64,000 bases of DNA from Candidatus Sumerlaeota bacterium (GCA_026398535.1 JAPLSQ010000082.1:20003-84002), one strand, 5' to 3'. Positions 7,956 through 32,165 are shown, counted from the first letter of the stretch. Notes: generated by a model from the letters alone, not told the origin. Numbers and translations are program-made.

Positions 7956-8495
7956 TTACAGTTCGTCAATGCCTGGGGGCAATTCGACCTCAATGCGGCG
8001 CGCCGCAAGGTTTACGTCACGCACGATCCCTTTGGCAAACGGAACAAGGAATGAGCGTCCGGCGCGCTCAACACGCAGGTAGTCATGCGCGGAGCCGGGG
8101 ATGACATCGCCGACGATTCCAATAAGGTCTCCGCTTTGCGCGTCGGTCACGCTTGCGCCGGCAAGCTCGCGGGTAAAATATTGTCCCTCAGGAAGCTCCC
8201 ACAGCGCGTCCGCGGGCGTCAATACTTCAGCGCCGGCAATCGTTCGTGCCTGATCCATGTCGTTGATGCCGTCAAAGGCGATGATGATGAATTGCTGGTG
8301 ATAATGAAACGAGCGGAAAGGGTATTGAGCGGGCGGGTTTTTTCCGACTGCAAGCCATAAGTGGGGGGACTTGATTTGTTCGAAAAGCTGTGGGGGGTTA
8401 AAATTCGGCGCCATGCGCACCTCGCCATTGCGGCCCTGTGCGCGGGTGATGTGTCCGATAGTGATCAGATCAATGTCCAACAGATCGCCGTTCAC
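7956..8495 (-). CDS. rimM: 16S rRNA processing protein RimM
   Basis: N-terminal beta-barrel plus C-terminal PRC barrel, 179 aa. Position directly downstream of rpsP and the KH protein fits the conserved cluster. Confidence 0.8.
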   Translation of the reverse strand: MNGDLLDIDLITIGHITRAQGRNGEVRMAPNFNPPQLFEQIKSPHLWLAVGKNPPAQYPFRSFHYHQQFIIIAFDGINDMDQARTIAGAEVLTPADALWELPEGQYFTRELAGASVTDAQSGDLIGIVGDVIPGSAHDYLRVERAGRSFLVPFAKGIVRDVNLAARRIEVELPPGIDEL

Positions 8496-8525
8496 GCTGA
8501 TTCAACGCGGGATTGGGCCAATGCG

Positions 8526-8798
8526 TTATTCGACGATCTGAAGGAGCGCTTTTTTTCTGAGCTTGGTCGCCGAGGCGCTGAGGATTTTGCGCAACGCCTT
8601 GGCTGTCTGGCCGCCCTTGCCGATGACTTTCCCAACGTCATCACCGGCCACTTTGAGTTCGAGAATGATTGAGTTTTCACCCTCGATGACATTAACGCGC
8701 ACTTCTTCTGAGCGGTCAACAAGCGCTTCGGAAATATACTGAATCAGATCTCTCATCTTCTGACCTTCGGATGCTGGAACGCTGCTCATAACGGTCAA
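8526..8798 (-). CDS. KH-domain RNA-binding protein (YlqC/UPF0109)
   Basis: GxxG KH motif (VIGKGGQTAKALRKIL), 90 aa, located between rpsP and rimM. Confidence 0.75.
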   Translation of the reverse strand: MTVMSSVPASEGQKMRDLIQYISEALVDRSEEVRVNVIEGENSIILELKVAGDDVGKVIGKGGQTAKALRKILSASATKLRKKALLQIVE

Positions 8799-8925
8799 CT
8801 CCGCTTCAACAATGAACTGTCAGGCAATGAAGCCTGGTCTTCAACTTATCTCAAGACTTAATGGGTCAATAACTGCAACAACTCCCGCCTTGCGGGAATG
8901 GGATAAACGCGGCTGCCGGTCTTTC

Positions 8926-9219
8926 TCACGTGTCGGCGGTTATCCGCGGGGCGGGTTTGCGCATTTCATGAAACTTCTTCATGATTCCCCGCTTGCGGAA
9001 AATCGACTTCACGGTGTCTGACGGGATAGCCCCGTTGCCAAGCCATTTCAGCGCGCGGGCCTCATCCACATCAACTTTGGGCGGATCGTTGCGCGGCTGG
9101 TAATAGCCGATAATTTCTATGAAACGTCCGTCGCGCGCTTTGCGCGAATCGGCTACGACGACGCGATAGGCTGGAGAATTAATTCTGCCGACACGCGCCA
9201 GACGTATTTTCACTGACAT
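8926..9219 (-). CDS. rpsP: 30S ribosomal protein S16
   Basis: [35 protein letters not shown]… is the canonical S16 N-terminus. Confidence 0.9.
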
Positions 9220-9412
9220 TCAATCACCTCACTATAATGTTTGCTGCTGTTTCGGCCAAACAGACAATCTAATATGATTATGCGTGTTGTTTGTTCAATT
9301 TTGCCTTTTTTCAAGGCAAGCTTCGCGACTTGTTTAGTGGCGTCCCGTGGCCATACGCAAGGGAATTCGCGGTCGCCGATTGTGCCGTATGGCCGAAACA
9401 CGGATGGATGCT

Positions 9413-12400
9413 TTATGGCACACTATTGGTGTGCTCGAGCAGTATGTTCGCGATTGTTTGCGCATTTTTCTGATCGAAAACATGGCTGTGGTCACCGGGC
9501 AGGTTGTGAATTTCCAAGCCCTGATCGGCCATTCCGCTCCATCCTGCCTGTGGATCGCGGGGCCGGGTGCCGACCACAATCGAGGCCTTGATCAGAAGCA
9601 GTTTCCCGGGGAAGAGCGCAACGGGGCGATAGTCGGTCACGGCGCGCATCTGGCATCCAATCGCCTCGGACATTTCAGCAAGATAGGATTTCACGGTGTA
9701 ACTGCTTGATTTCAGGCTTGCACGCACGGAGAAGCTGCGCATTTTGTGGCGTAAAATGTCCGCTTTGCTGCTCATGGGGCGCATCAGGAAATTCCAAAAG
9801 TAGCGTATCAGCCGGCGCCATTTCCCCGCATGGAAGGCGTTGGGGCCGTAGGAGTCGATCATGAACAGGCAGGAAACCTGCTCGCCCGCGGCGACGAGCT
9901 GGAGCGCCATTTCGTAGGCAAGAACTCCGCCAAGGCAGAAGCCGCCAATCAGGTATGGGCCGTGCGGCTGGATTTTTTGCGCCGTTTCAAGGAACTCGCG
10001 GGCGATGATTTCCACTGACCCGCTCGCGCGTGCGCCGGCAGAAAGTGAAAGCACTTCAAGCACATAGAATGGGCGGCCGCCTCCAAGGGCGCGCACGACG
10101 GGCGGGAACTGGCAGGCGCCGCTGATGCAAAAGATGGGGATTTTCGCGCCTGCGGCGCCCAATGAAATCACAGTCGCATGGTCGGAATCCGCGGAACCGG
10201 CGCTCAGGGCAGCTGCCAGTTGTGCGATCGTGGGCGCCTTGAAAAGAGCGCTCACCGGGAGATGGCGGCCAAGCCGCTTTTCAATGAGCGCTGTCATTCT
10301 GAGCATGAGCAACGAATAGCCGCCAAGATCAAAAAAGTTGTCATTGATGCCGATCGGACTTACGCGAAGCACTTCCTGCCAGATGGCGATAAGACTTGCT
10401 TCGAGTTGGTTTCGCGGTTCCGCACGAGATTCTCGGGTAATAAAAGATTCTTTGCCGGGAAGCGGCAGGGCGCGACGATCGATTTTGCCGCTTATCCCGC
10501 GCGGAAGAGCTTTCATGACGGTGTAGCTCATGGGAAGCATGTATTGAGGCAGTTTCTGGATGAGATAACGACGCAACTCCTCGCGCAGGACGTTCTGATC
10601 GCGGTCTGACGCGACATATGCCGCCAGGCCCACAATAACACCCTGGTTCCCAATGGGTCTGACGACAGCCTCACGGACAGCCGGATGGGTGGATAGGGCC
10701 TGCTCCGCCTCGCCCAACTCCACGCGGAATCCGCGTATTTGCACCTGATCGTCATTGCGTCCCAGGAACTCGATCTGGCCGTCTTCGCGGTATTTCGCCA
10801 AATCGCCTGTTTTATACATGCGGGCGCCAGGGAGTGTCTGGAAGGGATCGGGCAGGAATCTTTCGAGCGTCATGTCAGGGTTGTTCAAATAACCGCGTGC
10901 GACGTTTTCCCCGCCAAGGTAGAGTTCGCCAGCGACGCCGATTCCCGTCGGCTGCATTAATTCATCGAGTATATAACACGTGACGTTTGTGAGGGGGCGT
11001 CCGATGGGGGGACACGCATCGTCAGCATATGGGTCAACGCAGCACCATGTGCTGTCGACGGTGTTCTCCGTGGGGCCATAGCCGTTGATGAGGCTGAATG
11101 GATGTGAGGGTTTGGGGTGTCTCCGGAGGGTGTCGCCGCCTGTGAGCAGGCAGCGCAATGGGATTTCGGCGGGCCATGTTTCATCCAGCATGAGCTCCAT
11201 CAGCGCTGTCGGAATAAAACTGATTGTGATGCCTTCTTCGGCGAGCCAATCGATCATCCGGCGCGGGTCAAGGATGATTTCGGACTCGGGGATGTGAAGG
11301 CATGCGCCGGCTGCCAAGCAGGGCCAGATGTCGGCGATTGAGGCGTCAAACGCCAGACTTGCCACCATTGCGCCATGATCACGCGGAGTCATGGCGAGTT
11401 CTTTATTGTAGTGGCAAATAAGGTTGGTCAGGGAGTGATGTTCGATTTCCACGCCTTTGGGACGGCCTGTGGAACCCGACGTGTAGATGATATAAGCCCG
11501 GCTCCGGGCTGTTGCAGGGGCATGCGGCATGTCAGCGGATGCGTCGTCTGCGGGAAAGGGGACGGACGCATCCACGGGGATGAGTTTGAGTTTTGTGTCC
11601 GCCAATTGTTGTTTCAGATGCGGCTGGGTGAGGACAATTTTCGCCTGCGAGTTTTCAAGGATATAGAGGATTCGCTCGTGCGGGGCTGTGATATCGATGG
11701 GCACGAAAGAGCCGCCCGCTTTCAGCACGGCCAGACAACCAATGACGGCCTCAAATGAACGTTCCATGAAAATGGCAACAGACTGCTCAGGCTCAAGCCC
11801 CGCAGCGGCCAGTTGCCTTGCAAGACGGATTGCCCGCTGCTCAAGCTGGCCATAGCTTAAAAGTTGTCCGTTGCGCCGTAGCGCCGGCGCGGAAGGATCG
11901 CGCATTGTCTGCTCGCGCACGAAATCGTGGGCTTTTTTGTCGCGGGGAAAGTCTCTCCGCGTGGCATTCCAATCTTTGAGAAGCAGATGGCGTTCGGCGC
12001 CGCTGATCATGGGAACATCACGGATGCGGCGGGCCGGGTCGCGCGTAATTTCCTCAAGCAGAACCCGCAGATGCGAGGCCATCGTTTCCATCCGTGTTGC
12101 GTTGAAATTGCCCCCGGGCCAGCTCATCTGCACCCGCATGTCCTGCCACGCGTAAGCGCCAAGCGCGAGATAGTTGGTCTTGTCCACAAGCTTGAATGCG
12201 CGGTTGCTCCATCTGCCTCCGCGTTGCCGGAACATGGGCGTGAGCTGGATGTTGTCGAAGTCTTCAATGACATCGAAGAGCGGCATGCCCGAAGGCATGG
12301 AGCTCCATGACTGAATTCGGGCCAGCGGTGTGTGCTCATGCGGGCGGATGGCAACCTGCTGGTCATGGAGGCCCTGCAGCCACGAAATCAGAGATGCGCC

Positions 12401-13330
12401 GGGATCGGCCTGCGCGCGGAAGGGAACCATGTTCAGGAACAATCCGACCATTGTTTTTTCGGACGCGTCGCCGCGCCAATGACGGCAGGCCCGCGTGGAA
12501 CCAAACACGACATCTTCGCTGCTGGTGTGGCGCGCGAGCAGAATTGCCCACGCGCCTTGGACAAGCGTGTGCAGGGTGACGCCCTGCTCCTGGGCGAACT
12601 GGCGAAGCCGCGTGACATCGCCGGCAGGCAACCGGTATTCGATACAGCCATCCTCCGCGCTATTGCCGCCGCTGGGGGTCTTGTGTTTTCCCAGAATGGT
12701 CGGTTCGGACAGGTCTTTGAGCTGCGTTTGCCAGAATTCCCTGGGGGCCTCAAAATCGAGACTTTGCAGCCATTCAATATATTCGCTGTACGGGGGGGGG
12801 GTGGGCAGTGCCGGCGGCTCACGGCCTTCGATGAGCGCGTCGTAGATCGTGAACAGTTCATCGATAAGTATGGCGCGCGACCGTCCATCGAGCAGGATGT
12901 GATGCGATGTCCAGACAAGCTTCCATTCATGGACGCCCGATTTACTGCCGCATCGAAAGGCCGTCCAGCGCCATAATGGCGTTTCGGCAAGGTTAAATCC
13001 CCGTATGCCGTCCTCTCTGAGATAAGCTCCCAACCGGCTTTCTACTTCCCCCGGCGTCAGTCCAAAGCAATCTTGTATGTCAAGCGTGACGGGAACGGCT
13101 GCATGAACAACCTGTATGGGTTCCGGCGTTTCCTCCCAGACAAATGAGGTGCGCAGAATGCCGTGCCGATTGACAACATCCTCCCACGCCTTCAAAAAAA
13201 GATTAGTGTCCAGTTCCTCATTTAATGCGCAGACATATTGTTGCACATACAATCCCTCACCGCTTGCGGCGAGACTGTGAAACAACATACCCTGTTGTGC
13301 GGGAGAAAGAGGATAACGATCGGCCAGCAT
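9413..13330 (-). CDS. Single-module non-ribosomal peptide synthetase: condensation (starter-type) - adenylation - PCP - thioesterase (Cys-type)
   Basis: C domain: LSPAQQGMLFH and HHILLDGRS. A domain cores: YIIYTSGSTGRPKGV, NGYGPTENT, YKTGDL, GRNDDQVQIRGFRVELGEAE, GKIDRRAL. PCP: FFDLGGYSL. TE: GPYLIGGFCLGG, i.e. GxCxG instead of GxSxG. Confidence 0.9.
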   Translation of the reverse strand: MLADRYPLSPAQQGMLFHSLAASGEGLYVQQYVCALNEELDTNLFLKAWEDVVNRHGILRTSFVWEETPEPIQVVHAAVPVTLDIQDCFGLTPGEVESRLGAYLREDGIRGFNLAETPLWRWTAFRCGSKSGVHEWKLVWTSHHILLDGRSRAILIDELFTIYDALIEGREPPALPTPPPYSEYIEWLQSLDFEAPREFWQTQLKDLSEPTILGKHKTPSGGNSAEDGCIEYRLPAGDVTRLRQFAQEQGVTLHTLVQGAWAILLARHTSSEDVVFGSTRACRHWRGDASEKTMVGLFLNMVPFRAQADPGASLISWLQGLHDQQVAIRPHEHTPLARIQSWSSMPSGMPLFDVIEDFDNIQLTPMFRQRGGRWSNRAFKLVDKTNYLALGAYAWQDMRVQMSWPGGNFNATRMETMASHLRVLLEEITRDPARRIRDVPMISGAERHLLLKDWNATRRDFPRDKKAHDFVREQTMRDPSAPALRRNGQLLSYGQLEQRAIRLARQLAAAGLEPEQSVAIFMERSFEAVIGCLAVLKAGGSFVPIDITAPHERILYILENSQAKIVLTQPHLKQQLADTKLKLIPVDASVPFPADDASADMPHAPATARSRAYIIYTSGSTGRPKGVEIEHHSLTNLICHYNKELAMTPRDHGAMVASLAFDASIADIWPCLAAGACLHIPESEIILDPRRMIDWLAEEGITISFIPTALMELMLDETWPAEIPLRCLLTGGDTLRRHPKPSHPFSLINGYGPTENTVDSTWCCVDPYADDACPPIGRPLTNVTCYILDELMQPTGIGVAGELYLGGENVARGYLNNPDMTLERFLPDPFQTLPGARMYKTGDLAKYREDGQIEFLGRNDDQVQIRGFRVELGEAEQALSTHPAVREAVVRPIGNQGVIVGLAAYVASDRDQNVLREELRRYLIQKLPQYMLPMSYTVMKALPRGISGKIDRRALPLPGKESFITRESRAEPRNQLEASLIAIWQEVLRVSPIGINDNFFDLGGYSLLMLRMTALIEKRLGRHLPVSALFKAPTIAQLAAALSAGSADSDHATVISLGAAGAKIPIFCISGACQFPPVVRALGGGRPFYVLEVLSLSAGARASGSVEIIAREFLETAQKIQPHGPYLIGGFCLGGVLAYEMALQLVAAGEQVSCLFMIDSYGPNAFHAGKWRRLIRYFWNFLMRPMSSKADILRHKMRSFSVRASLKSSSYTVKSYLAEMSEAIGCQMRAVTDYRPVALFPGKLLLIKASIVVGTRPRDPQAGWSGMADQGLEIHNLPGDHSHVFDQKNAQTIANILLEHTNSVP

Positions 13331-13503
13331 AATACAAGATGATCATTCATCAGACGGGCGTTGGCATGTCAAGAGTCATGCGGTTCAGTGTTGCGTGTTT
13401 CGTCCGATGAATTATCGGCTCACATGACGTGAACGCTGATAAATGTGGAGACAAGACATGCGGGGAATCCGCATTAGCGGGCACTGCAACAGTTGCTCTT
13501 TGT

Positions 13504-15504
13504 TTATTTATTCCCGCGCGCGTTCTTCTTTTTGGTTTTTCCATCGGCGGCTGGCGGCGGGGGAGGCGGAGGGGGCGGAACGCCCGCAACAGCCTGTTTT
13601 TTAAGCTGCCGCTCTTCCTCGCGGGCCAGCTGGCGGTTGGTCAGCAGCGTTTGAAAAATCTGCCAGACATTAGATGCGTTCCAGTAGATCATGAGGCCGG
13701 CGGGCATCGAATAGAGGATAAATATCATGAAGAGCGGCATGAAGTACATCATTTGCTTCTGTGTGGGATCCATCAACTTGCTTTTCAGGCGCGCCATGGA
13801 AATCCATGTGGCCAGCATCTGGGTGAGCCCCATAAGAATGGGCAGCAGGTTTAAATAAGCTCCGACAAAGGGCAGCATCATGCCGAACGGGACAAGGTGG
13901 TCGGGCTGGGACAAATCTTTGATCCACAGGAAATGCGCGCCCTGGAGATCAATTGTGTCGTTGGAGACGCGGTACAGCCCGTAGAACACCGGCAGCTGGA
14001 GGATCATGGGCACGCAACCGCGCAGGGCGCCAAAGGGCGAGATGTTATGCTCTTTGTAGACCTTCCATGTCTGCTTGTTCTTCTCGTTTGGGTTGTCCTT
14101 GTATTTTTCGTTGATCTGGTCGAGGTAGGGCTTGATCTTTTGCATTTCGGCCATGGATTTGGCTTGGATGCGAATGCTGTGTTGGGTCAGGGGGAATGTG
14201 ACAAGCCGCACGAGAACGGTGAGCATGATGATGGCCACGCCATAGTTGTGGACATACTTGAAAATCCAGTTCAGCAGGTCGGTAAGGAACAGGTAGATGA
14301 CGCGCATGAAGGGCCATGCGTCGTGGAACATGAGTGTCTGGAGATTGAGAGCCGCGCCGTACTGATTGAGCGTGCGGTATTTTTTAGGCCCGACATAGAG
14401 CTTGTAAGTGAAAGTCTGGTTGCTGCCCGGAGGGATTTCGAGGCGGTCTGTGGCCAATTCCATTGTCAGCGGCGGCTGATGATCTTTGGTTGGCAGGTTG
14501 TGGGCGCCGGGCACGAGGGCGCGGAAGAAAAAGCGCTGTTTTCGTGCCGCGTCGTCGGGTTGGACGGGAATAAGGATGGCGGTGAAAAATTTGGATTCGA
14601 CGCCGCTCCATTGGATGCGTCCGTCCGCCTCGACGGGTTCGGAGTTGGGCTTGGGATACGCCGCGCGCACTTGGTCATCCATGCGGAACACGGCAGCGTC
14701 ATAGGCCTCCTCGCCGGTGGGCTTGTCGCCAAGGTTGCGTTCGACGAGTCCCGGCCCCCAGCGGATGATCAGACCGCGTCCGGTGTCGTCATAGACAGGG
14801 ATCGTGCTTGCGCTGTCATTGCGAAGGGTGATCTGTAGAAGCGACATGTAGCCGTCGCGGTCGAATTCGAATGACTTGGTCACACTGACGCCGCGCAAAG
14901 CAGGCGACTCATAAACAAGCAGTCCGTCGTTGCCCGCGGGCGCTGGGGCCCGGCGGCGCGTCCATTTGATATTATTGAATTCCTCATAACTGTAGGCGGC
15001 TTGTTCGCTGAAGCTGATCTGCAGGGGCCATGTTTGAGCGGGGGGTTGCGAGGGCAATAATGCGGGGATCTTGCGCACAAGTTCGATGCCTTCGCGGTTG
15101 TCCATCCGCTGTTCGAAGGATTCGCTTCCGGGATCAAGCAGGCGCCAGCTATGGATGACGGCGCCCGTGGAGTCGATGCCGATGGCATACTTGTTGGTTG
15201 TCGTGGTGGTGATTTCGCCCGGGTGGCTGACAATGGATATCGATGTGTTTTCGATCAGGCGGGGTTTGGCGGGAATGATTTCCGCGGCTGCTGCCGTGTG
15301 TGCCGGCGTGCGGGAGGTTTCCGCCGCGGCTTGGACGGACATCGCGGCGGATGTTTCATGTGATTTGGCCAGTGTGGATGTGGTGGATTTGCCCTTGCCG
15401 GCGTCGGCCGTCTGTTTGGCCGGCTGATTGCGCTGCATGAGTGTCGCAAAAAGCTGAATGATGACGAATGACAGCAACAGAAATAGCAGCCAGCGGCGGT
15501 CCAT
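13504..15504 (-). CDS. yidC: Membrane protein insertase YidC
   Basis: N-terminal TM helix, a large periplasmic domain, a C-terminal 5-TM Oxa1 core (…PFGALRGCVPMILQLPVFYGLY…) and a Pro-rich basic tail. Last gene of the rpmH-rnpA-yidD-yidC cluster. Confidence 0.9.
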   Translation of the reverse strand: MDRRWLLFLLLSFVIIQLFATLMQRNQPAKQTADAGKGKSTTSTLAKSHETSAAMSVQAAAETSRTPAHTAAAAEIIPAKPRLIENTSISIVSHPGEITTTTTNKYAIGIDSTGAVIHSWRLLDPGSESFEQRMDNREGIELVRKIPALLPSQPPAQTWPLQISFSEQAAYSYEEFNNIKWTRRRAPAPAGNDGLLVYESPALRGVSVTKSFEFDRDGYMSLLQITLRNDSASTIPVYDDTGRGLIIRWGPGLVERNLGDKPTGEEAYDAAVFRMDDQVRAAYPKPNSEPVEADGRIQWSGVESKFFTAILIPVQPDDAARKQRFFFRALVPGAHNLPTKDHQPPLTMELATDRLEIPPGSNQTFTYKLYVGPKKYRTLNQYGAALNLQTLMFHDAWPFMRVIYLFLTDLLNWIFKYVHNYGVAIIMLTVLVRLVTFPLTQHSIRIQAKSMAEMQKIKPYLDQINEKYKDNPNEKNKQTWKVYKEHNISPFGALRGCVPMILQLPVFYGLYRVSNDTIDLQGAHFLWIKDLSQPDHLVPFGMMLPFVGAYLNLLPILMGLTQMLATWISMARLKSKLMDPTQKQMMYFMPLFMIFILYSMPAGLMIYWNASNVWQIFQTLLTNRQLAREEERQLKKQAVAGVPPPPPPPPPAADGKTKKKNARGNK

Positions 15505-15551
15505 GATCGCTTAGTACCTGTCTCCGTGTGTGGAAGATGTGGTTGCCTGGT

Positions 15552-15824
15552 TCATAAACTTTTATCCATGACGCGCCGCTCATCCGCGTCGACGGGGTCG
15601 TAACCGCCTTTGCAAAAGGGATTGCAGCGCAACAGGCGCCATATAATCATTCCGAGCGCTGTCAGCAGGCGTTTGCGGCGCAAGGTCTCGATGGCATAGG
15701 CTGAGCATGATGGGTAAAACCTGCATGCGGGCGGCAGAATGGGCGCAAGTGTGATCTGATACAGCCTTACGGTTCCCGCCAGGACAGACTTGAATGGTTG
15801 TTCGATGTGCTCGGTCAGTGTCAT
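15552..15824 (-). CDS. yidD: Membrane protein insertion efficiency factor YidD
   Basis: Motif CRFYPSCSAYAIEAL…, ~90 aa, 4-bp overlap with rnpA. Confidence 0.85.
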   Translation of the reverse strand: MTLTEHIEQPFKSVLAGTVRLYQITLAPILPPACRFYPSCSAYAIETLRRKRLLTALGMIIWRLLRCNPFCKGGYDPVDADERRVMDKSL

Positions 15825-16225
15825 GATCCGCTCTCCCGGCGGTTGCCGGACATGTCCGCATCAGCGAACAATTCCGCCTGCCGCCATGCTGACATCAACT
15901 GGCTTCTGATGTCCGCGAAGCTCATTCGGGCAGCGGCGGGATTGAAATTGACGATCACCGTCGATCCGCTTTTCATACACGGGAGCGCGGCGCGGAACAC
16001 TTCACGCGCGATGCGCTTGAGCCGGTTGCGCTGAACGGCGCCGCCGGTTTTGCGTGTCGCGGTGATGCCAAGACGCGTTGGCTGGTCTGATGATTCCCGT
16101 CCGAGCACGAACACACTGGCGGCTGCCCGCCGGCGGCGGCTGCCACGCTCGTAGGCGTCAAGAAAATCGGCGCGTTTTCGCACACGATTCTCCCTGCGAA
16201 AGAAATATCGCGTCTGTTGAGCCAA
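15821..16225 (-). CDS. rnpA: Ribonuclease P protein component
   Basis: Basic ~130-aa protein (…RVRKRADF…RLGITATRKTGGAVQRNRLKR…) between rpmH and yidD. Exact start uncertain. Confidence 0.75.
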   Translation of the reverse strand: MAQQTRYFFRRENRVRKRADFLDAYERGSRRRRAAASVFVLGRESSDQPTRLGITATRKTGGAVQRNRLKRIAREVFRAALPCMKSGSTVIVNFNPAAARMSFADIRSQLMSAWRQAELFADADMSGNRRESGS

Positions 16226-18456: not shown

Positions 18457-19818
18457 TTGGACATGCCTTGCTTCGCATCCACAGCCATCGGGGCGGAAAA
18501 CCGCCTTTACAGCCCCGATTTGCCCGCGTTGAAAGCGGTTGGAGCGGCCGCGGCGCCTGCTGATACGAACTCAGCCCGCGCCATTCTTTCCCGTGCGGGA
18601 CAGCCTCTTTCGTACGGCGACCTCGCAAGCCTGCTCAAGGCCGTGCTGTTGCCGTCCGGCGCCGGAGTGGCTTCGATTGTGTGCGAGTGTTCGGCGCGGT
18701 TGCGGCGAAAATTGTTCGGCATCGCGGTCATAACCATGGCGCCGGTCGAAATAGCGAACACATGCCTTTCCGACTGTCTTTTCTGCGGGTGGCGCCGGTC
18801 AAACCAGATCATGAAACGCCTGGCGATCCCCGATGATCTGGCGATGCTGCAGGTGGAGTATCTTGTCGGTCTCGGGATTCATCACATCGAATTTGTGAGC
18901 GGGGACGACATCAAGGCCGTGCGCGAATCGCTGCCCCGTCTGATCGCGCAGACACGCGAGCTGTTCCGCAGGCGCGGCATTGACGGGATAATCTCCTTTT
19001 GCACGCTTGCGCTTACCGAGCGCCAGTACCGCGATCTGAAGAGCGCGGGCGCTGATGCCATGATTCTGTGGCAGGAAACGTATGACCGGTGTGTGTTCAA
19101 ACAGCATATCAAGGGCGGTCCGAAAGCCAGCGGGATTGACGACGACTGGAAGCAGGTGAGGGGCGGCGACGGCTGCCGGTTTCGCATCGAATCGCAGGAG
19201 CGCGCGTTGCGCGCGGGTCTGGATGTGGCGCTGGGATCGATGCTTGGCCTCAATCCCGACATATGCGCCGATTTTCTGGCCGCCGTGGATCATGCGCGGT
19301 ATCTCGCCGCGCATTATGATATTACGCCCGAGCATCCCATGATCATTGGGATGCCGATATGGAACCCCATCACGACACAGGCGACTGACCTGCGTCCGGC
19401 GCGTGCGCCCGGCATGGAGACAATCTTTCCCGCCATCGCGGGTTTGTACATGCTGGCGTTGCCGCGAAGGTCAGTGTGGATTTTTCCAAATTGCCGCGTC
19501 TCGATGGATCAGCAGATCGAGGCGGCGCGGGTTGCCGGGGTTTTCACGTCGACCGAGGTGAAACTCGGCCCGGGCGGCTATCTGCCCTCCATACTGAAAA
19601 ACATACGGCACGGCAATAGCGGGACGGAAGCCCTATGGCGGCGCGCGGCCGATCTTGTGAAACAGGCGGTGGAAAGCGAGGAGGAACTGGCACGCGTTCT
19701 GGACGAACACGAGCAGTTTGTGCATCACTATCACACGCATGAGGCCTACTTGCGGGCGATGGAGCGCGCCGGGCTGCGCCTGGCCGCGCGCGCAAGCCTG
19801 CCGGCGACAGACGATTAA
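18457..19818 (+). CDS. Radical SAM protein, ThiH/HydG/BioB-like subfamily, function unknown
   Basis: CxxxCxxC cluster motif (NTCLSDCLFCGW) preceded by a ~100-aa N-terminal extension as in ThiH/HydG; 453 aa. Lies 30 bp downstream of fabF on the same strand. Confidence 0.75.
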   Translation: MDMPCFASTAIGAENRLYSPDLPALKAVGAAAAPADTNSARAILSRAGQPLSYGDLASLLKAVLLPSGAGVASIVCECSARLRRKLFGIAVITMAPVEIANTCLSDCLFCGWRRSNQIMKRLAIPDDLAMLQVEYLVGLGIHHIEFVSGDDIKAVRESLPRLIAQTRELFRRRGIDGIISFCTLALTERQYRDLKSAGADAMILWQETYDRCVFKQHIKGGPKASGIDDDWKQVRGGDGCRFRIESQERALRAGLDVALGSMLGLNPDICADFLAAVDHARYLAAHYDITPEHPMIIGMPIWNPITTQATDLRPARAPGMETIFPAIAGLYMLALPRRSVWIFPNCRVSMDQQIEAARVAGVFTSTEVKLGPGGYLPSILKNIRHGNSGTEALWRRAADLVKQAVESEEELARVLDEHEQFVHHYHTHEAYLRAMERAGLRLAARASLPATDD

Positions 19819-25858: not shown

Positions 25859-26157
25859 GTGCTGTCTCTCTCTGGCCGTTTATTCGATGGATTCTTTGCA
25901 GGTTATATGGTTGCATGATTGGGCGCGAATCCGAAAAGTCAATCCCAATGGCGCATTTGTTGTGGAACAGACTTTCAATGTGCGCCATCAATCCCCCAAC
26001 ACGTGATGGATGGATATGCCACAAACATCCGGGGCGCATCAGTTAATGCGCGAATGACAATTCGCCGGATACGCGAGATGAATCCGCGCTTCATGGTGAG
26101 CCGAAATATTCGTTGTGCGCGCTTGGCAACTGGTCCAACTTTTCCAGCACAAGCTCA

Positions 26158-27273
26158 ATGACCATGTCTTTTGATTCTCTGATGGATACGCTGCTTTCGC
26201 GGGCAATCAATTGGGATTGTCCGATGAGCGGGGACGAGTTCGACACCCTTGCCCTGAAGATTTTCGCGTATCAATATGAGCACAATGCCTTCTATCGGCG
26301 TTATTGTGACGCCCGCCGGGCAACCGCGGCGGGCAGTCCACACGATTCACAACCTGTGCCGTCGAGCTGGCTTGAAATCCCCGCTCTGCCAACAAACGCG
26401 TTCAAGCGCGCCGAAATATGCTGTTTTCCGGCGGAGCGGCGCATTGCCTTCTTTAAGACCAGCGGCACGACGGACGGCGAGACGGGAAGGCATTATTTTT
26501 CCACGCTTGCCCTCTATGAGGCCGCCATTGTTCCCAATTTCAAACAACATCTTCTGCCTGACGAGGGGCGGCTCAGGATGCTCATTCTGACTCCGCCGCC
26601 CGCGGAGACGCCGCATTCCTCGCTTGTCCACATGATGAAAGTCGTTCGCGAGCATTTCGGGACGGATGACAGCTTTTATTGTCTGCGTGAGGGAAGATGG
26701 CGGGCAAATGATATGCTTGATGCGCTTCATCAGAGTGAAACCGCGGGGGAGCCCGTGTTTCTGCTGGGCACTGTGTTCGCGTTTGTGTTCATGCTCGATG
26801 AAATGGCCGCGCGCGGCGCGAATTTCAGATTGCCAGAGGGCAGCCGCGTCATGGAAACGGGCGGTTTCAAGGGCCGCGCGCGCGAAATTCCGCGCGCTGA
26901 ATTTTACGCCAGCCTCTGCGGCGCTTTCGGCATTCCGCCACACCGCATCGTGAACGAATATGGGATGACCGAACTTTCGTCTCAATTTTACGACACGAGT
27001 CTTGCTGATGGCGCGCCCGGGAACCTGAAATCCGTTCCGCCTTGGACGCGGGTGCTGATCGTTGATCCCTTGTCCGGTCATCCAGTCCCGGATGGCGTCC
27101 CGGGGCTGATCCGTATTGTTGATCTCGCAAATCTCGGCAGTGTGATCGCCTTGCAGACCGAGGACGTTGGCATCATGCGCGGCGGCAAATTCGAGATGCT
27201 CGGCCGTGTGGCATCCGCCCCGCCGCGAGGCTGCTCACTCGCCGTGGAAGACCTGATGAATCAGCAGGGATAG
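26158..27273 (+). CDS. LuxE-family acyl-protein synthetase (ANL superfamily)
   Basis: …FFKTSGTTDGETGRHYF…, …METGGFKGRAREI…, …EYGMTELSSQFY…; ~370 aa. Start chosen at MTMSFDS; ORF-track start is 26113. Confidence 0.65.
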   Translation: MTMSFDSLMDTLLSRAINWDCPMSGDEFDTLALKIFAYQYEHNAFYRRYCDARRATAAGSPHDSQPVPSSWLEIPALPTNAFKRAEICCFPAERRIAFFKTSGTTDGETGRHYFSTLALYEAAIVPNFKQHLLPDEGRLRMLILTPPPAETPHSSLVHMMKVVREHFGTDDSFYCLREGRWRANDMLDALHQSETAGEPVFLLGTVFAFVFMLDEMAARGANFRLPEGSRVMETGGFKGRAREIPRAEFYASLCGAFGIPPHRIVNEYGMTELSSQFYDTSLADGAPGNLKSVPPWTRVLIVDPLSGHPVPDGVPGLIRIVDLANLGSVIALQTEDVGIMRGGKFEMLGRVASAPPRGCSLAVEDLMNQQG

Positions 27274-27366
27274 GACCGCTCAACATTCAGATTCGCTCGT
27301 TCATCAAAGGCGCCAACGCGTGTCTCAAGCGCTGGCGGTGGTGCGACGGACCCGCTGGCTGGTGAT

Positions 27367-28515
27367 TTATATTTCTGTTTCCGCTTGAGGATTGCCGATG
27401 ATGTCTGGCGGGACCAGCCCGGCGTAGCGCGCGAACCTGCTCTCCGGCAAGAGCGCCAGCAGGCGTTGCGCAACCGCCCGGATCCGCGCCGGCGAATCCG
27501 GGACATTCAACGGCAGTTCCGGCAGGGCTTTACCCAGCGCCCGCGCCAGGTGCGTCACGCCAAAGTAGTTCTGCCGGAGATTGTCTGTCATGAGCGCCCC
27601 AAGAAAGACGGGAACGCCGTCGTCGCGCGTCTGAAGGCGGTCATAGTTCTCCAGCGGCCGCGCGTCATCGGTGTGATGCGCGCTGTCCGGCGCTGGCAGG
27701 AGTTCTTCCAGTTCCCGCCGCGTATTGATGGCGCAGACCAGAGTCCGGGGTTGCGGATTCCGCAAGACGAAGCGCAGCGCGCGCGTGGCAATATCCTTCA
27801 CCGGCTCAAAGCCGAACAGTTCGGCGAAACGCGGCAGCCGGTTCACCGCGCAGAATGGCACACCGTATTCCGCCCAGACCAGGCATTTCATGGCAATCAG
27901 CGCGGCTTTGCCCTCATAATCACTGAAGTGCTGCTCCAATTGGCGGTTACGGAAATTGTAGGGGATCATGATGACCCGGAATTCCGGAAAGCGGCCGGCA
28001 ACTTCCCGTGCCAGCCGGACATCATGGCTTGAAAATCCTAAAAGGCGGAAGTCGCCTGCCTGCCGGCGCTTTTCCAGCAGGTTCACAAGACGTTCGCACA
28101 GCGCCGGATCGTACTGTTCTTCGACGGCGTTGACCATGAACGTGTCGAACCGGGCGCCGGGCATGATTTTTAACCGCGCGTCCAGCCAGCGGTTGAAGTA
28201 CTCCTCCACGCTCACCCCATGGGTTTTCGAGCCGGAAAAGGCGCCGAGTACCATGCCGTTCACCCAGACTCGGTCCCGCAGTCCCGTCGCCTTCAGGATT
28301 TCGGCCAGCACCGCCGCCTCATTGCGCCATGTGGTGTCGAACCATGTGACTCCGGCGGCCAGGGCGCGTTCGATCAAAGGCGCCCTCGCTTTCACGGCCG
28401 TGTCCGTCAAGGCATATCGATCCTCAAAAGCTCCCTCCTCCATGGCAAAATAATGGCCGCCGATTCCGATCCGCGACACGGGAGGAGTGCCATCCATCAA
28501 TTCATATGTCTTCAT
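27367..28515 (-). CDS. Aldo/keto reductase family oxidoreductase
   Basis: N-terminal …GIGGHYF…LAAGVTWFDTT… (AKR-like GxGxW / FDTA pattern), ~380 aa, TIM-barrel-like length. Confidence 0.5.
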   Translation of the reverse strand: MKTYELMDGTPPVSRIGIGGHYFAMEEGAFEDRYALTDTAVKARAPLIERALAAGVTWFDTTWRNEAAVLAEILKATGLRDRVWVNGMVLGAFSGSKTHGVSVEEYFNRWLDARLKIMPGARFDTFMVNAVEEQYDPALCERLVNLLEKRRQAGDFRLLGFSSHDVRLAREVAGRFPEFRVIMIPYNFRNRQLEQHFSDYEGKAALIAMKCLVWAEYGVPFCAVNRLPRFAELFGFEPVKDIATRALRFVLRNPQPRTLVCAINTRRELEELLPAPDSAHHTDDARPLENYDRLQTRDDGVPVFLGALMTDNLRQNYFGVTHLARALGKALPELPLNVPDSPARIRAVAQRLLALLPESRFARYAGLVPPDIIGNPQAETEI

Positions 28516-28946
28516 GGTAAGCCAACGTTACGCATCAGCCTCGAGGCTGCCGCCTTGGCAACCGGGCTGGTTGAATGCGCTTGTTCGTGGGTACAGATCG
28601 TCGTCGTCTGAGCTTGATTAATGGCCGTTTTTTACCTCTTGCGGGTGTCAGTTGTCAACCGGAATAGCAAAATGGTCTTCACCTTTGGGTGTGGCGGGGA
28701 TCGCTTGGCGGAGTTCGACGCCCCGCTGTCGGGTGGAGACGGCGGAGCGCAGGGCGCGCCGGCCAACAGCGGCTCATCAGTTCAGCCTGAGATCGCTTGT
28801 GAGGATGCCGATCAGATTTCAGAGAGATTTTGCCGAACGCGTGAGATGCGCCCGCGAATTCGGGTGTGTGTTGGAATTGTCTTGCGCCTTGAGCGTTCAG
28901 CAGCGATTAAAAACAAGATTCAATCAATTCCATGAGGTGGTTTTAA

Positions 28947-29765
28947 ATCTCAGGATGGAGAAGGTACGCGTAGGTGTCGTGGGAGTTGGCCATTTGGGCC
29001 AGCATCACGCGCGAATCTACGCTAAAAATCCAAAATGCGAGCTTGTGTGTGTCGTGGACATCGACGCGCATCATGCCCGGAAGATTGCCAAACAGTATAA
29101 AACCCGCTCGATGACGGATTACCGGGAGCTGTTTGGTCTTGTTGATGCGTGCAGTATTGCCGTTCCTACGGTCAGTCCTCAAGGAAGTTGTCAAGGAACC
29201 CGCCTTCATCGAGGGTCACCGTCTGGGGCCATACGATCCGCGCGTGAAGGATGTGGGCGTGGTGCTCGACCTGATGATTCATGACCTTGACATCATTCTC
29301 CAACTCGTGAATTCGCCCGTCGCCAGCGTCGAAGCCGCGGGTGTCGGCATCTATACCGACAAGGAAGACATCGCGAACGCCCGCATCCATTTCGCCAACG
29401 GCTGCATCGCCAATCTTACGGCCAGCCGCGTGACACCGGTAAAAAAACGCAAAATCCGGATTTTCCAAAAGGATGCCTATATATCCGTGGATTATATTGA
29501 GCAGGAGATGGAGATTTTCCGCAAAGTGAAGCTCCCCAACGCGCTGCCGGGGATGCCCAATGTGTCAATTGTGCGCAAAAAGGAGCGCATTGAGCGCGAA
29601 GAGCCCCTGAAACTTGAACTCGACCACTTCATCGATTGCGTAGTTCACGGCTCGGAGCCCATGGTGAAGGGCGAGCATGCGCGGGATGCGCTTGAACTGG
29701 CCGTCGAAATTTCCGGCCAGATCAAGACGCGTCTTGAACGACTTTCAATGGGATCGGGGAAATGA
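28947..29765 (+). pseudogene. Gfo/Idh/MocA-family NAD-dependent oxidoreductase, apparently disrupted (frameshift plus loss of the EKP-containing segment)
   Basis: N-terminal Rossmann part MEKVRVGVVGVGHLGQHHARIYAKNPKCELVCVVDIDAHHARKIAKQY…AVPTVS lies in one frame (ends at 29284). The C-terminal dimerisation domain (…GHRLGPYDPRVKDVGVVLDLMIHDLDIILQL…) is in another frame (29133-29765). Only ~13 codons link them where ~80 aa are expected. Confidence 0.5.
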
Positions 29766-30952
29766 ATCGGGCGGGCATCTCATCAATCATGATGCCGGAA
29801 TCGTCCGCCAAATTGATGTTTGTTGCAGGGGAGAATTCCGGCGATCAGCATGCCGCCCGCCTCATTGAAGAATTGCAGCGCCTCGAACCGCGGATCGAGT
29901 GCTTTGGTTATGGCGGCGAAAGCATGGAAAAGGCCGGGATGCGCCTTGATGAGAACCTTGCGCAGAAACTCCCGATCATTGGCTTCACCCAGGCATTTCG
30001 AAATCTTGGCGAGCTTAAAAAACTGCTCGTTCGTGCGGTGAAACTGCTCGACCACGAAAAGCCCGACGCGGTGGTTCTTGTGGATTATCCCGGGTTCAAT
30101 CTGCGTGTGGCGGCGGCCGCGAAGGCGCGCAATATTCCGGTCATCTATTACATATCGCCGCAAATCTGGGCCTGGCATCGCGAGCGGCTGAACACGATTG
30201 CGGCTTGTGTGACGCGCATGCTGGTCATTCTGCCTTTTGAAGAGGATATTTACCGCAAGGCGGGTGTTCCGGTGACTTATGTGGGGCATCCGCTGCTTGA
30301 TCAGGCCGGGTCAGGTTTGAAGCCGCGCAAGGTCATTATTGAAGAGCTGGAGATCGGCCCTGACAAGACCATCATCGGTCTGCTTCCCGGCAGCCGCGAA
30401 CCGGAAATCGTGCGTCATCTGCCGGTCATGCTTGAGGCGGCGCGGTTGATTCTGGCGCGCTGGCCCGCCGCGGAGTTTGTTCTGCCGCGGGCTTCCACGA
30501 TTTCCCGAAAACTCATCTGGAAATATCTCCCGCAGTTCCCGGATGTGAAGGTTCGCGTTGCGGAGAAGGATCATCAGGCCGTGCGCGCGGCGATGGACTT
30601 CGCCATATGCAAAAGCGGGACGTCGACGCTTGAGCTTGCGCTGCTGGGTGTGCCGATGATCGTGATCTACAAAGTGTCGCTTCCGACTTATCTGCTTGGC
30701 AGGATGCTTGTGCGGATCAAATGGCTTGGCCTGGTTAATATTGTGGCCAATGAATCGGTGGCGCCCGAACTGATTCAGAGCGACGCGACTCCCGGCAAAA
30801 TCAGCAAAAGCGTTCTGAAATATCTTCGCAATCCCGCGGCAATGTCGGCCATGAAGGAAAAGCTTGGCCGCATTCGCGCCATGATGGGTTTGCCCGGGGC
30901 TTCCCGCCGCGCCGCGCGGGAAATCATGGGCATTCTGCATCCGCCCGCCTGA
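29762..30952 (+). CDS. lpxB: Lipid-A-disaccharide synthase
   Basis: …LMFVAGENSGDQHAARLIEEL…, …GHPLLD…, GT-B fold length ~390 aa. The true start may be the internal Met at ~29792. Confidence 0.85.
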   Translation: MNRAGISSIMMPESSAKLMFVAGENSGDQHAARLIEELQRLEPRIECFGYGGESMEKAGMRLDENLAQKLPIIGFTQAFRNLGELKKLLVRAVKLLDHEKPDAVVLVDYPGFNLRVAAAAKARNIPVIYYISPQIWAWHRERLNTIAACVTRMLVILPFEEDIYRKAGVPVTYVGHPLLDQAGSGLKPRKVIIEELEIGPDKTIIGLLPGSREPEIVRHLPVMLEAARLILARWPAAEFVLPRASTISRKLIWKYLPQFPDVKVRVAEKDHQAVRAAMDFAICKSGTSTLELALLGVPMIVIYKVSLPTYLLGRMLVRIKWLGLVNIVANESVAPELIQSDATPGKISKSVLKYLRNPAAMSAMKEKLGRIRAMMGLPGASRRAAREIMGILHPPA

Positions 30953-31353
30953 ATTCAGCGCATCAGACGCAGTCATTGCCAAAAAGCGCATGCCCCCGAT
31001 ATCCTGCTCAAGTTGCACGAGCGCTTCGGGCATCCGGTTCCCGGCGCGTTGCATGACACACGGCAAATATCCGCGTGGCTGCTTCCGTCAGGATCTGACC
31101 CGGTTAGGCTTCCGCTCGTTGCCCTGAACGCGCCAGGAACCCGACGCCCTAAGTTCTGATGAAGTTACTCGTCTTGAATGAGGGCTATTCAGGGGGAAAC
31201 GATCCGTATCACCAGGATCCCGCCGCGGCGGGCGCGGGGTGTTGACGTTTGATGAAATGTGGTTGGACATCATGCTCATTCTTTTTCTTTGCCTGAAGAC
31301 GGTCTCACATGACTTCATCAAGATGAGTCATTGAAAATGAGACTGTCTCCGTC

Positions 31354-32112: not shown

Positions 32113-32165
32113 CGGCGGACTTCAGGCAACAGGCGGCGGCATGTTTCCGCTGTCTTTATGGACTC

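What the first reader, a model, noticed from the sequence alone, without database searches (positions are those of the whole stretch)
9413..13330. Stand-alone C-A-T-TE NRPS whose thioesterase uses Cys instead of Ser, embedded between ribosomal-protein and YidC clusters
A single ORF encodes a full condensation-adenylation-PCP-thioesterase module. The C domain is N-terminal, so the acyl or peptidyl donor must come in trans; a starter C domain of this kind usually N-acylates the loaded amino acid. The TE nucleophile elbow reads GFCLGG rather than GxSxG. Cys-containing NRPS thioesterases are known from beta-lactone/beta-lactam-forming systems (obafluorin ObiF1, sulfazecin SulM), where the Cys is mechanistically important. 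A lone module of this architecture in a Verrucomicrobia-like genome, flanked by rpsP-rimM on one side and rnpA-yidC on the other with no tailoring genes, is unusual. It could make a small N-acyl amino acid, a lipo-amino acid or a strained-ring product.
Basis: partly seen in the sequence, partly recalled or inferred. Interest (0 to 1): 0.65.

Follow-up and report, generated by a model that had tools for sequence, protein, structure and literature searches.

The report
Lone NRPS module with cysteine thioesterase
A single, intact peptide-synthetase gene with a cysteine (not serine) release site really does sit alone between housekeeping genes of a Candidatus Sumerlaeota bacterium.

Summary
Window 9413-13330 (- strand) is one 1305-aa ORF with C-A-PCP-TE architecture and all catalytic motifs intact. 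It lies between rnpA-yidD-yidC and rpsP-khpA-rimM, and the 64 kb window holds no other NRPS/PKS, PPTase, MbtH or tailoring gene. Cys1132 (GGFCLGG) is the TE nucleophile by Pfam and PDB alignment and by a confident model.

- The TE is AB3403-type (Cys with the triad Asp at canonical position I). It is not ObiF1/SulM-type (Asp at position II, type-II-TE-like). Cys occupies about a quarter to a third of elbows among the nearest TE relatives, and 8 of 17 stand-alone C-A-T-TE representatives have it.
- The C domain is DCL-class (276 bits to McyB-C1, against 32-44 bits to starter C domains), not a lipo-initiation starter C.
- The host is Ca. Sumerlaeota, not Verrucomicrobia.

The A-domain code is DAAFLGGVDK (Asp235 and Lys517 present), with no confident substrate call.

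The protein is a derived member of an uncharacterised family of lone C-A-A-T-TE synthetases, often found in glycan loci. All other members have a Ser elbow. This lineage lost one A domain, changed TCC to TGC, and shows relaxed constraint.

Verdict: new member of a known kind, product unknown, moderate-to-low interest.

The parts
9413..13330 (-). Whole NRPS gene, 1305 aa, C-A-PCP-TE
11981..13321 (-). Condensation domain (aa 4-450), DCL class; HHILLDG at aa 143-149 (window 12884-12904)
10484..11917 (-). Adenylation domain (aa 472-949); specificity code DAAFLGGVDK; Asp235-equivalent = Asp662 (11345-11347), Lys517-equivalent = Lys949 (10484-10486)
10205..10393 (-). Peptidyl carrier domain (aa 980-1042); phosphopantetheine Ser1006 in the rare motif GGYSL (10313-10315)
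9416..10195 (-). Thioesterase domain (aa 1046-1305), type-I, AB3403-like
9935..9937 (-). TGC codon of nucleophile Cys1132 (GGFCLGG)
9854..9856 (-). Triad Asp1159 (MIDS), canonical position I, 27 residues after the nucleophile
9488..9490 (-). Triad His1281 (PGDHSH)
13504..16225 (-). Upstream housekeeping operon rnpA-yidD-yidC (context, not part of the system)
7956..9219 (-). Downstream housekeeping genes rpsP-khpA-rimM (context); sigma70-like promoter match at 9259-9231 upstream of rpsP

Best explanation
This is an intact, probably functional but orphan single-module NRPS. It is a derived member of an uncharacterised family of lone C-A-A-T-TE synthetases, and its release domain is an AB3403-type cysteine thioesterase. 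Proposed mechanism: the A domain adenylates one alpha-amino acid (code DAAFLGGVDK, substrate unassigned) and loads it on PCP Ser1006. The N-terminal DCL-class C domain joins it to a thioester-bound donor delivered in trans, which is not encoded within 64 kb. The product passes to Cys1132 of the TE as an acyl-thioester and is released by the canonical Cys1132-His1281-Asp1159 triad through hydrolysis, cyclisation or transfer to an acceptor. Shown here: domain order, intact motifs, the nucleophile position, the triad type, the C-domain class, family membership and the lone context. Inferred: that the enzyme is active, the identity of donor and amino acid, and the release chemistry. The evidence argues against beta-lactone or beta-lactam chemistry.
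For: Architecture and motifs. Cys is the nucleophile: HMM alignments to AB3403 (GGWCFGG), NocB, EntF, FAS and Pks13; column census; AF2 model with pLDDT 81.5 and pTM 0.84 placing Cys at the beta81-86/alpha88-102 elbow, Asp right after strand 107-113 and His after strand 227-232; best fold match 4ZXH AB3403, E 4.9e-16. PMC11298585 describes AB3403 as the only other solved NRPS Cys-TE and says its Asp is at position I. C domain is DCL class. The A domain is competent for alpha-amino acids (Asp235 and Lys517 present), and its code is conserved in the family as DAAFLGTVDK or DATFLGTVDK. Family and lone context: 7 of 7 contexts examined have no second NRPS/PKS gene within the fetched flanks. The ORF is intact in three assemblies. 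GC and GC3 match the host genes.
Against: No PPTase, donor module or carrier protein lies within 64 kb. A DCL-class C domain normally follows an epimerase-containing module, and none was seen. pN/pS is 0.55-0.73, against 0.06-0.13 for pooled neighbours (Fisher p 0.027 and 0.006, though only 7 nonsynonymous and 3-4 synonymous changes). The PCP motif GGYSL is rare. The family's usual first A domain is missing. No orthologue was found in 185,579 GTDB species representatives. Together these features are also compatible with a decaying gene. Activity, substrate and product are entirely untested.
Confidence: 0.5

Rival explanations
1. Evolutionary relic. The gene is a recently relocated, degenerating remnant of a C-A-A-T-TE synthetase. 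It has lost its first A domain and its partners, is no longer under purifying selection, and makes no product.
For: pN/pS 0.55-0.73 versus 0.06-0.13 in neighbours. Nested among two-A-domain relatives in both C- and A-domain NJ trees. Derived changes at two catalytic-site motifs, GGHSL to GGYSL and GFSxG to GFCLG. No PPTase or partner nearby, whereas P0005 and P0006 have an adjacent PPTase. Absent from other Sumerlaeaceae at this locus and from GTDB representatives.
Against: A 3.9 kb frame stays open in three independent assemblies, with every C, A, T and TE core motif intact. None of the 7 amino-acid differences between alleles hits a catalytic residue. Composition matches the host, which implies long residence. 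A Cys elbow is a functional variant in AB3403-type TEs. The substitution counts are very small.
Confidence: 0.2
2. Self-contained aminoacyl or peptidyl transferase acting on a glycan or lipid. The family works without partner modules, and the C domain and/or TE transfers the PCP-bound amino acid (or a dipeptide, in the two-A-domain forms) to a sugar, polysaccharide precursor or membrane lipid.
For: All 7 contexts lack partner NRPS genes. Four of the 7 lie among GT4/GT2/PMT_2 glycosyltransferases, hexapeptide acyltransferases, a Wzx-type flippase or a Wza-type exporter. Two have a dedicated PPTase immediately downstream. The A-domain code is conserved across the family.
Against: The window gene itself, and the K. 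glycovorans and P0158 genes, are not in glycan loci. An N-terminal C domain canonically receives its own PCP in the acceptor site, so transfer to a free nucleophile is non-canonical. No biochemical precedent was found for this family.
Confidence: 0.15
3. Lipo-amino-acid synthetase of the SwrW or starter-C type. The C domain N-acylates the loaded amino acid with a fatty acyl-ACP or acyl-CoA and the TE releases an N-acyl amino acid or a dimer.
For: Lone C-A-T-TE architecture with an N-terminal C domain. Housekeeping acpP-fabF lies 3 kb away. Wild-type DCL SrfA-C has trace fatty-acyl donor activity, and three mutations make it efficient (PMC11142918).
Against: The C domain scores 4- to 8-fold higher against DCL domains than against starter C domains. 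The nearby ACP and KAS are AcpP/FabF equivalogs, not a dedicated pair. No acyl ligase is adjacent; the LuxE-like gene is 13 kb away in a lipid A region.
Confidence: 0.1
4. Strained-ring (beta-lactone or beta-lactam) forming TE, as in ObiF1 and SulM.
For: Only the shared Cys nucleophile.
Against: The triad Asp is at position I, not position II (against the criteria quoted). There is no Gln-Cys-Asn motif; the sequence is Phe-Cys-Leu. ObiF1 and SulM are absent from the TE sequence hits at E<=1 and from the top 50 fold matches. All orthologues in the family use Ser. The A code does not resemble Dap or Thr codes (comparison from my own knowledge of published codes).
Confidence: 0.03

Closest known systems
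AB3403 (ABBFA_003403) of Acinetobacter baumannii, PDB 4ZXH/4ZXI
   Same: Stand-alone C-A-PCP-TE protein of about 1300 aa. TE with a Cys nucleophile (GGWCFGG versus GGFCLGG), Asp at position I (MIDT versus MIDS) and His in a GDH motif. It is the best sequence match (E 9.6e-14) and the best fold match (E 4.9e-16, TMq 0.72) for the TE. Its product is also undefined.
   Different: TE identity is only about 22%. The C domains are unrelated in class (26 bits). AB3403 sits in an operon with a free-standing adenylating enzyme and a carrier protein, whereas this gene is alone. AB3403 was crystallised with glycine; this A domain has a different code.
Uncharacterised lone C-A-A-T-TE synthetases (e.g. Kiritimatiella glycovorans WP_052881508.1; metagenomic P0002, P0005, P0006, P0158, P0161)
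   Same: True homologues over the C domain (34-44% identity), the second A domain (46-52%) and T-TE (33-40%). Near-identical A-domain code (DAAFLGTVDK). Always the only NRPS gene in its neighbourhood.
   Different: They carry an extra A domain with no carrier of its own, have Ser at the TE elbow (TCC/TCG codon) and GGHSL in the PCP, and are often in glycan loci with an adjacent PPTase. The window protein has one A domain, Cys (TGC) and GGYSL, and lies between housekeeping operons.
ObiF1 (obafluorin) and SulM (sulfazecin) Cys thioesterases
   Same: Cys as the TE nucleophile; ObiF1 is also C-A-PCP-TE.
   Different: Their triad Asp is at position II, with Gly at position I in ObiF1. Their TEs group with type II TEs (RifR, RedJ). 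SulM has a Gln-Cys-Asn motif. None of these features holds here.
DCL condensation domains at the N-terminus of multi-protein NRPS subunits (McyB-C1, SrfA-C, TycB1)
   Same: Best sequence matches for the C domain (276, 192-199 and 198 bits). YPLSPxQxGMLFH N-terminal motif and HHxxxDG present.
   Different: Those receive a D-configured peptidyl donor from an upstream E-domain module encoded next door. No such module is in the window. The family reads HHILLDGRS where canonical DCL domains have DGWS. Only 5 residues precede the YPLSP motif, which leaves little room for an N-terminal docking helix (sequence; inference from my own knowledge).
SwrW (serrawettin W1/serratamolide synthetase), a uni-modular C-A-T-TE (own knowledge; not tested here)
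   Same: Single-protein C-A-T-TE that works with an acyl donor from primary metabolism.
   Different: SwrW uses a starter-type C domain and a Ser TE.

Membership tests
NRPS termination module (C-A-PCP-TE) | Condensation domain with HHxxxDG | tested here: met
   Pfam PF00668 E 4.5e-83; HHILLDG at aa 143
NRPS termination module (C-A-PCP-TE) | Adenylation domain with core motifs A3-A10, Asp235 and Lys517 | tested here: met
   PF00501 and PF13193; TIGR01733 416.6 bits, above the 317.4 cutoff; code DAAFLGGVDK anchored on verified 1AMU numbering
NRPS termination module (C-A-PCP-TE) | Carrier domain with GGxS phosphopantetheine site | tested here: met
   PF00550; LGGYSL with Ser1006. Tyr at the position before the Ser is rare, 5 of 369 held PCPs
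NRPS termination module (C-A-PCP-TE) | Alpha/beta-hydrolase TE with a nucleophile-Asp-His triad | tested here: met
   PF00975; Cys1132, Asp1159 and His1281 align to triad columns; model topology
Beta-lactone/beta-lactam-forming Cys-TE (ObiF1/SulM type) | Cys nucleophile | tested here: met
Beta-lactone/beta-lactam-forming Cys-TE (ObiF1/SulM type) | Triad Asp at position II (loop after the post-lid strand), with no Asp at position I | tested here: not met
   Asp1159 occupies position I and aligns with the position-I Asp of AB3403; criterion taken from PMC6668435 and PMC11298585
Beta-lactone/beta-lactam-forming Cys-TE (ObiF1/SulM type) | Groups with type II TEs (RifR/RedJ-like); SulM-specific Gln-Cys-Asn motif | tested here: not met
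   The top 50 fold matches are all type-I TEs, led by AB3403. ObiF1 and SulM are absent from the TE sequence hits. The motif here is Phe-Cys-Leu
Beta-lactone/beta-lactam-forming Cys-TE (ObiF1/SulM type) | A domain specific for a beta-hydroxy or beta-amino amino acid | tested here: inconclusive
   Code DAAFLGGVDK matches no code I know at more than 7 of 10 positions, and has no literature hit. No predictor was available
AB3403-type Cys-TE | Cys nucleophile with Asp at position I and His; closest in sequence and fold | tested here: met
AB3403-type Cys-TE | Operon with a free-standing adenylating enzyme and carrier protein that supply the donor | tested here: not met
   None within 64 kb; description of the AB3403 pathway
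Starter (lipo-initiation) C domain module | C domain of the Cs class | tested here: not met
   RzmA-Cs 44 bits and CDA-C1 32 bits, against 192-276 bits for DCL domains
DCL elongation/termination module of a multi-protein NRPS | C domain of the DCL class | tested here: met
   8F7F confirmed as SrfA-C
DCL elongation/termination module of a multi-protein NRPS | Upstream module with an epimerase domain encoded in the same cluster | tested here: not met
   No such gene in the window or in any of the 6 relatives' contexts.
Lone C-A-A-T-TE family (uncharacterised) | Homology over C, A2 and T-TE, with the conserved A2 code DAAFLG(T/G)VDK | tested here: met
Lone C-A-A-T-TE family (uncharacterised) | Two tandem A domains sharing one carrier; Ser elbow | tested here: not met
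   One A domain and a Cys elbow

The most novel reading that the evidence does not exclude
The window protein and its C-A-A-T-TE relatives form a previously unrecognised class of self-contained, partner-less NRPSs in Sumerlaeota, PVC-group and related uncultured bacteria. They would aminoacylate or peptidylate a cell-envelope glycan or lipid rather than make a diffusible secondary metabolite. In the two-A-domain forms, two A domains would share a single carrier. The Sumerlaeota enzyme would be a neofunctionalised offshoot: A1 lost, and Ser changed to Cys so that the TE holds a more reactive thioester for transfer.
Probability: 0.12. Interest if true: 0.7.

Novelty: new member of a known kind. 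Interest (0 to 1): 0.32.

Why it matters
If the enzyme is active, it would be the first NRPS product from the candidate phylum Sumerlaeota, and a second tractable example of the AB3403-type Cys/position-I-Asp thioesterase, whose chemistry is still undefined. It also points to a coherent, unstudied family of lone C-A-A-T-TE synthetases. One member is in the cultured Kiritimatiella glycovorans, which could be used to test whether these enzymes decorate envelope glycans. Practically, the result warns against treating a GxCxG elbow as a marker for beta-lactone or beta-lactam chemistry. Cys elbows are common in this TE clade, and the position of the triad Asp is the discriminating feature.

Tried and rejected
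1. The word-indexed homologue search with the TE alone returned only 16 short proteins and missed even the 99%-identical P0001. It was replaced by exhaustive HMMER.
2. The GTDB genome scan hit only through the generic PCP pattern GINDNFFD. The five gene-specific 8-mers found nothing, so there is no orthologue, and the source species is not represented in that collection.
3. A literature search for the specificity code returned nothing. Searches for Sumerlaeota NRPS and for lone C-A-T-TE enzymes gave nothing specific.
4. I looked for insertion scars and mobile-element signatures around the gene and found only short chance repeats. Promoter and terminator scans were not above shuffled expectation.
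5. The Rfam scan of the flanks gave one sub-threshold YrlA match overlapping the rpsP start, which I dismissed as chance.
6. I considered the nearby ACP-KAS pair as a dedicated acyl donor and rejected it: both exceed the AcpP/FabF equivalog cutoffs.
7. My first by-eye reading of code position 278 was Ser. The ungapped alignment anchored on 1AMU corrected it to Phe, and the mapping was validated because P0178 returns the textbook Gly code.
8. Foreign origin by composition was rejected: GC and GC3 fall within the host range.


Full report
**1. Observation**

Window 9413-13330 is a single 1305-codon ORF on the minus strand. Pfam gives Condensation (aa 4-450, E 4.5e-83), AMP-binding (472-815, E 5.5e-75) with AMP-binding_C (874-949), PP-binding (980-1042) and Thioesterase (1098-1294, E 1.2e-17). 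NCBIfam's amino-acid adenylation model TIGR01733 scores 416.6 bits against a 317.4 cutoff. All core motifs are present: HHILLDG, SGSTGRPKG, FDAS, NGYGPTE, YKTGDL, SGKIDR, LGGYSL, GGFCLGG, MIDS and GDH.

On the same strand, rnpA, yidD and yidC lie upstream, and rpsP, a KhpA-type KH protein and rimM lie downstream. I annotated the rest of the 64 kb. It contains no other NRPS/PKS gene, PPTase, MbtH protein, epimerase module or free carrier protein apart from housekeeping acpP.

**2. Is GFCLGG the nucleophile elbow?**

Yes.
- A search with the TE alone against PDB sequences aligns Cys1132 with the catalytic residue of every matched thioesterase. These include AB3403 (GGWCFGG), NocB (GGWSFGG), EntF, human FAS and Pks13.
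- Asp1159 (MIDS) aligns with MIDT of AB3403, and His1281 (PGDHS) with its GDH.
- An AlphaFold2 model of aa 1046-1305 is confident (mean pLDDT 81.5, pTM 0.84). It puts the Cys at the turn between strand 81-86 and helix 88-102, the Asp immediately after the next strand (107-113), and the His after the last strand.
- The best PDB fold match is AB3403 (4ZXH, E 4.9e-16, TMq 0.72), followed by other canonical type-I TEs.
- The Cys codon TGC (window 9935-9937) is retained in two other assemblies, so it is not an error.

**3. What kind of Cys-TE is it?**

The papers on ObiF1 and SulM state the distinguishing feature of the strained-ring TEs. Their triad Asp sits at 'position II', after the post-lid strand, with Gly at the canonical site in ObiF1. 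They group with type II TEs such as RifR and RedJ. SulM also has a Gln-Cys-Asn motif (PMC6668435; PMC11298585).

The SulM paper adds that AB3403 is the only other solved NRPS TE with a Cys nucleophile, and that it keeps the Asp at position I. The window TE has its Asp at position I and reads Phe-Cys-Leu. It does not retrieve ObiF1 or SulM at E<=1 or among the top 50 fold matches. It is therefore AB3403-type, and the analogy to beta-lactone or beta-lactam chemistry is not supported.

**4. How unusual is the Cys?**

I ran an exhaustive HMMER search of 1.84 billion representative proteins with the TE.
- Only the protein's own cluster is close. The next relatives are at most 36% identical, yet 12,155 proteins match at E<=1e-10.
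- Across 243 domain alignments from the best 150 representatives and other held relatives, the nucleophile column is Ser in 133 and Cys in 72.
- Among 145 full-length alignments, 93 are Ser-Asp/Glu-His and 34 are Cys-Asp/Glu/Asn-His.
- Among 17 representatives with a stand-alone C-A-T-TE layout, 8 have a Cys elbow.

So a Cys elbow, typically GG[FYW]C[LFI]GG, is a common variant in this clade.

**5. The C domain**

Searching aa 1-455 against PDB sequences gave two clearly separated groups.

| C domain | bits |
|---|---|
| McyB-C1 | 276 |
| PvdL | 247 |
| bacitracin synthase 3 | 222 |
| SrfA-C (8F7F; identity confirmed) | 199 |
| TycB1 | 198 |
| ObiF1 | 49 |
| RzmA-Cs | 44 |
| CDA-C1 | 32 |
| EntF | 29 |
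| AB3403 | 26 |
| VibH | 25 |

McyB-C1, SrfA-C and TycB1 accept D-configured donors from an epimerase-bearing module (my own knowledge of those pathways). The N-terminal YPLSPAQQGMLFHS motif is also of the DCL/dual type (my own knowledge of Rausch et al. 2007). The domain is therefore DCL-class.

One caveat comes from PMC11142918. Wild-type SrfA-C has trace fatty-acyl donor activity, and three mutations make it efficient. The class therefore argues against an acyl donor but does not exclude one.

**6. The A domain**

I anchored positions on GrsA-PheA. A fragment recalled from memory was verified as 1AMU residues 184-526. It returns DAWTIAAICK in the alignment, and an unrelated protein, P0178, returns the textbook Gly code DILQLGLIWK. 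Both results validate the mapping.

The window code is DAAFLGGVDK, with Asp235 and Lys517 present, so the refutation condition 'inactive A domain' is not met. By my memory of published codes, the best matches are only 7 of 10 (Leu DAWFLGNVVK, Gln DAQDLGVVDK, Glu DAWHFGGVDK). There is no literature hit. The substrate is unassigned.

**7. Lineage and locus history**

- YidC is 100% identical to MCX7019814.1 of a Candidatus Sumerlaeota MAG. The NRPS cluster includes the adjacent accession MCX7019813.1 from the same 120 kb contig. The next YidC relatives are Ca. Sumerlaea/Sumerlaeaceae at 56-62% identity. The host is Sumerlaeota (BRC1), not Verrucomicrobia.
- In three Sumerlaeaceae relatives, yidC is followed by a small Jag/KhpB-like or unknown gene. 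There is no NRPS, and rpsP is not adjacent.
- No GTDB species representative has an orthologue; the best matches are 30-39% identical and come through a generic PCP pattern.
- GC (0.577) and GC3 (0.654) fall within the range of neighbouring genes. No flanking repeats mark an insertion.

The arrangement is lineage-specific but not recent enough to look foreign.

**8. The family it belongs to**

The closest multi-domain relatives are P0002, P0005, P0006, P0158, P0161 and P0151. P0151 is Kiritimatiella glycovorans WP_052881508.1.
- They share 34-44% identity in C, 46-52% in A and 33-40% in T-TE with the window protein.
- Their layout is C-A-A-T-TE, with only about 50 residues between the two A domains and a single carrier.
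- Their second A domain has the code DAAFLGTVDK.
- P0279 is a C-A-T-TE member with DATFLGTVDK.
- Every one of them has Ser at the elbow, and the four with DNA available use TCC or TCG. The window's TGC is a single C-to-G change.
- All have GGHSL or a near variant in the PCP. The window's GGYSL is rare, at 5 of 369 held PCPs, 3 of which are its own cluster.

In neighbour-joining trees of both the C and A domains, the window protein nests among two-A-domain members, next to P0002 and P0158, while P0279 branches separately. These trees have no support values. They suggest secondary loss of the first A domain.

In all seven contexts examined, the NRPS is the only NRPS/PKS gene in the fetched flanks.
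- P0005 and P0006 lie inside loci of GT4/GT2 glycosyltransferases, hexapeptide acyltransferases and a Wzx-type flippase, with a PPTase immediately downstream.
- P0002 lies between a hexapeptide transferase and a Wza-like exporter.
- P0279 is flanked by PMT_2 and GT2 genes.
- The K. glycovorans, P0158 and window genes are in unrelated contexts.

**9. Selection**

I compared the window allele with the alleles in L001 and L002.

| Comparison | NRPS nonsyn / syn changes | NRPS pN/pS | Pooled neighbours pN/pS | Fisher p |
|---|---|---|---|---|
| Window vs L001 | 7 / 3 | 0.73 | 0.13 | 0.027 |
| Window vs L002 | 7 / 4 | 0.55 | 0.06 | 0.006 |

pS in the NRPS is also 3-4 times lower than in the neighbours. 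The counts are small, but the signal points to relaxed constraint relative to housekeeping neighbours. None of the seven replacements touches a catalytic residue.

**10. Synthesis**

Most likely (about 0.5), this is an intact, orphan, single-module NRPS with an AB3403-type Cys thioesterase. It is derived from a lone C-A-A-T-TE ancestor. It loads one unassigned amino acid, needs a thioester donor from outside the window, and releases product through an acyl-S-Cys1132 intermediate.

Rivals:
- A decaying relic (0.2).
- A partner-less aminoacyl transferase acting on envelope glycans or lipids, suggested by the family's contexts (0.15).
- A SwrW-like lipo-amino-acid synthetase (0.1).
- A beta-lactone or beta-lactam TE (0.03).

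The gene is already deposited with a generic annotation. It is a new member of a known kind. Its main value is as a pointer to an unstudied family, and as a caution that a GxCxG elbow alone does not indicate strained-ring chemistry.

Noticed in passing
L004 8700-14228 (P0006); also P0005, P0002, P0158, P0161, and P0151 at L089 10001-15442: A coherent, uncharacterised family of lone C-A-A-T-TE synthetases: two tandem A domains about 50 aa apart, one carrier, Ser TE, and a conserved second-A code DAAFLGTVDK. Members often sit in glycan loci (GT4/GT2, hexapeptide transferases, Wzx, Wza, PMT_2) with a PPTase immediately downstream. One member is in the cultured Kiritimatiella glycovorans (WP_052881508.1).
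   Followed up: partly
window 9413-13330 versus L001/L002: The NRPS shows pN/pS 0.55-0.73, against 0.06-0.13 in pooled neighbouring genes. Its synonymous divergence is 3-4 times lower than that of yidC, rnpA and fabF next door. This could mean relaxed constraint, or a different recent history such as a sweep or recombination of this segment. Counts are small.
   Followed up: partly
window 10313-10315 (Ser1006) and the preceding codon: The carrier-domain motif reads GGYSL instead of the usual GG(H/D)SL.
   Followed up: partly
window 26113-33808: A LuxE-type acyl-protein synthetase (26113-27273; well below the equivalog cutoff) lies beside an aldo/keto reductase (27367-28515), a GFO/IDH/MocA oxidoreductase (28652-29284), LpxB (29762-30952) and an LPG_synthase_TM (MprF-like) protein (32768-33808). 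This may be a membrane-lipid modification neighbourhood.
   Followed up: no
window 37367-41014 (- strand): A 1215-aa ORF with very high GC3 (0.81) and no Pfam match at E<=1e-4. Several other long ORFs (33762-35570, 54242-55753, 56126-57943) also have no family match, and some may be shadow frames.
   Followed up: no
window 18457-19818 (+ strand): A 453-aa protein directly downstream of acpP-fabF resembles radical-SAM ThiH/HydG enzymes, but far below their cutoffs (99.6 bits against 380). A homologous-looking unknown gene of about 480 aa sits next to rnpA in Sumerlaea relatives (L085, L087).
   Followed up: no
window 13331-13503, compared with L088 10132-10983: The Jag/KhpB-type KH+R3H gene that follows yidC in a Sumerlaeaceae relative is missing at this position in the window. 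The NRPS occupies the slot instead, and rpsP-khpA-rimM follows. This suggests a rearrangement breakpoint.
   Followed up: partly
P0137, P0139, P0145, P0168 and others: Many relatives in this TE clade carry tandem TE domains (TE-TE or T-TE-T-TE), frequently with Cys elbows in one or both copies. About 25 of roughly 150 representatives show this.
   Followed up: no
L003 666-4634 (P0178): Another lone-looking C-A-T-TE protein (1322 aa) has a DCL-like C domain, the textbook Gly code DILQLGLIWK, a Cys elbow (GGYCFGG, codon TGT) and Asn in the position-I Asp column. The contig is too short (5.3 kb) to judge context.
   Followed up: no
window 9101-9226 (- strand): A sub-threshold Rfam match to YrlA (29.4 bits against a gathering score of 69, E 0.0044) overlaps the start of rpsP. 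It is most likely chance.
   Followed up: yes
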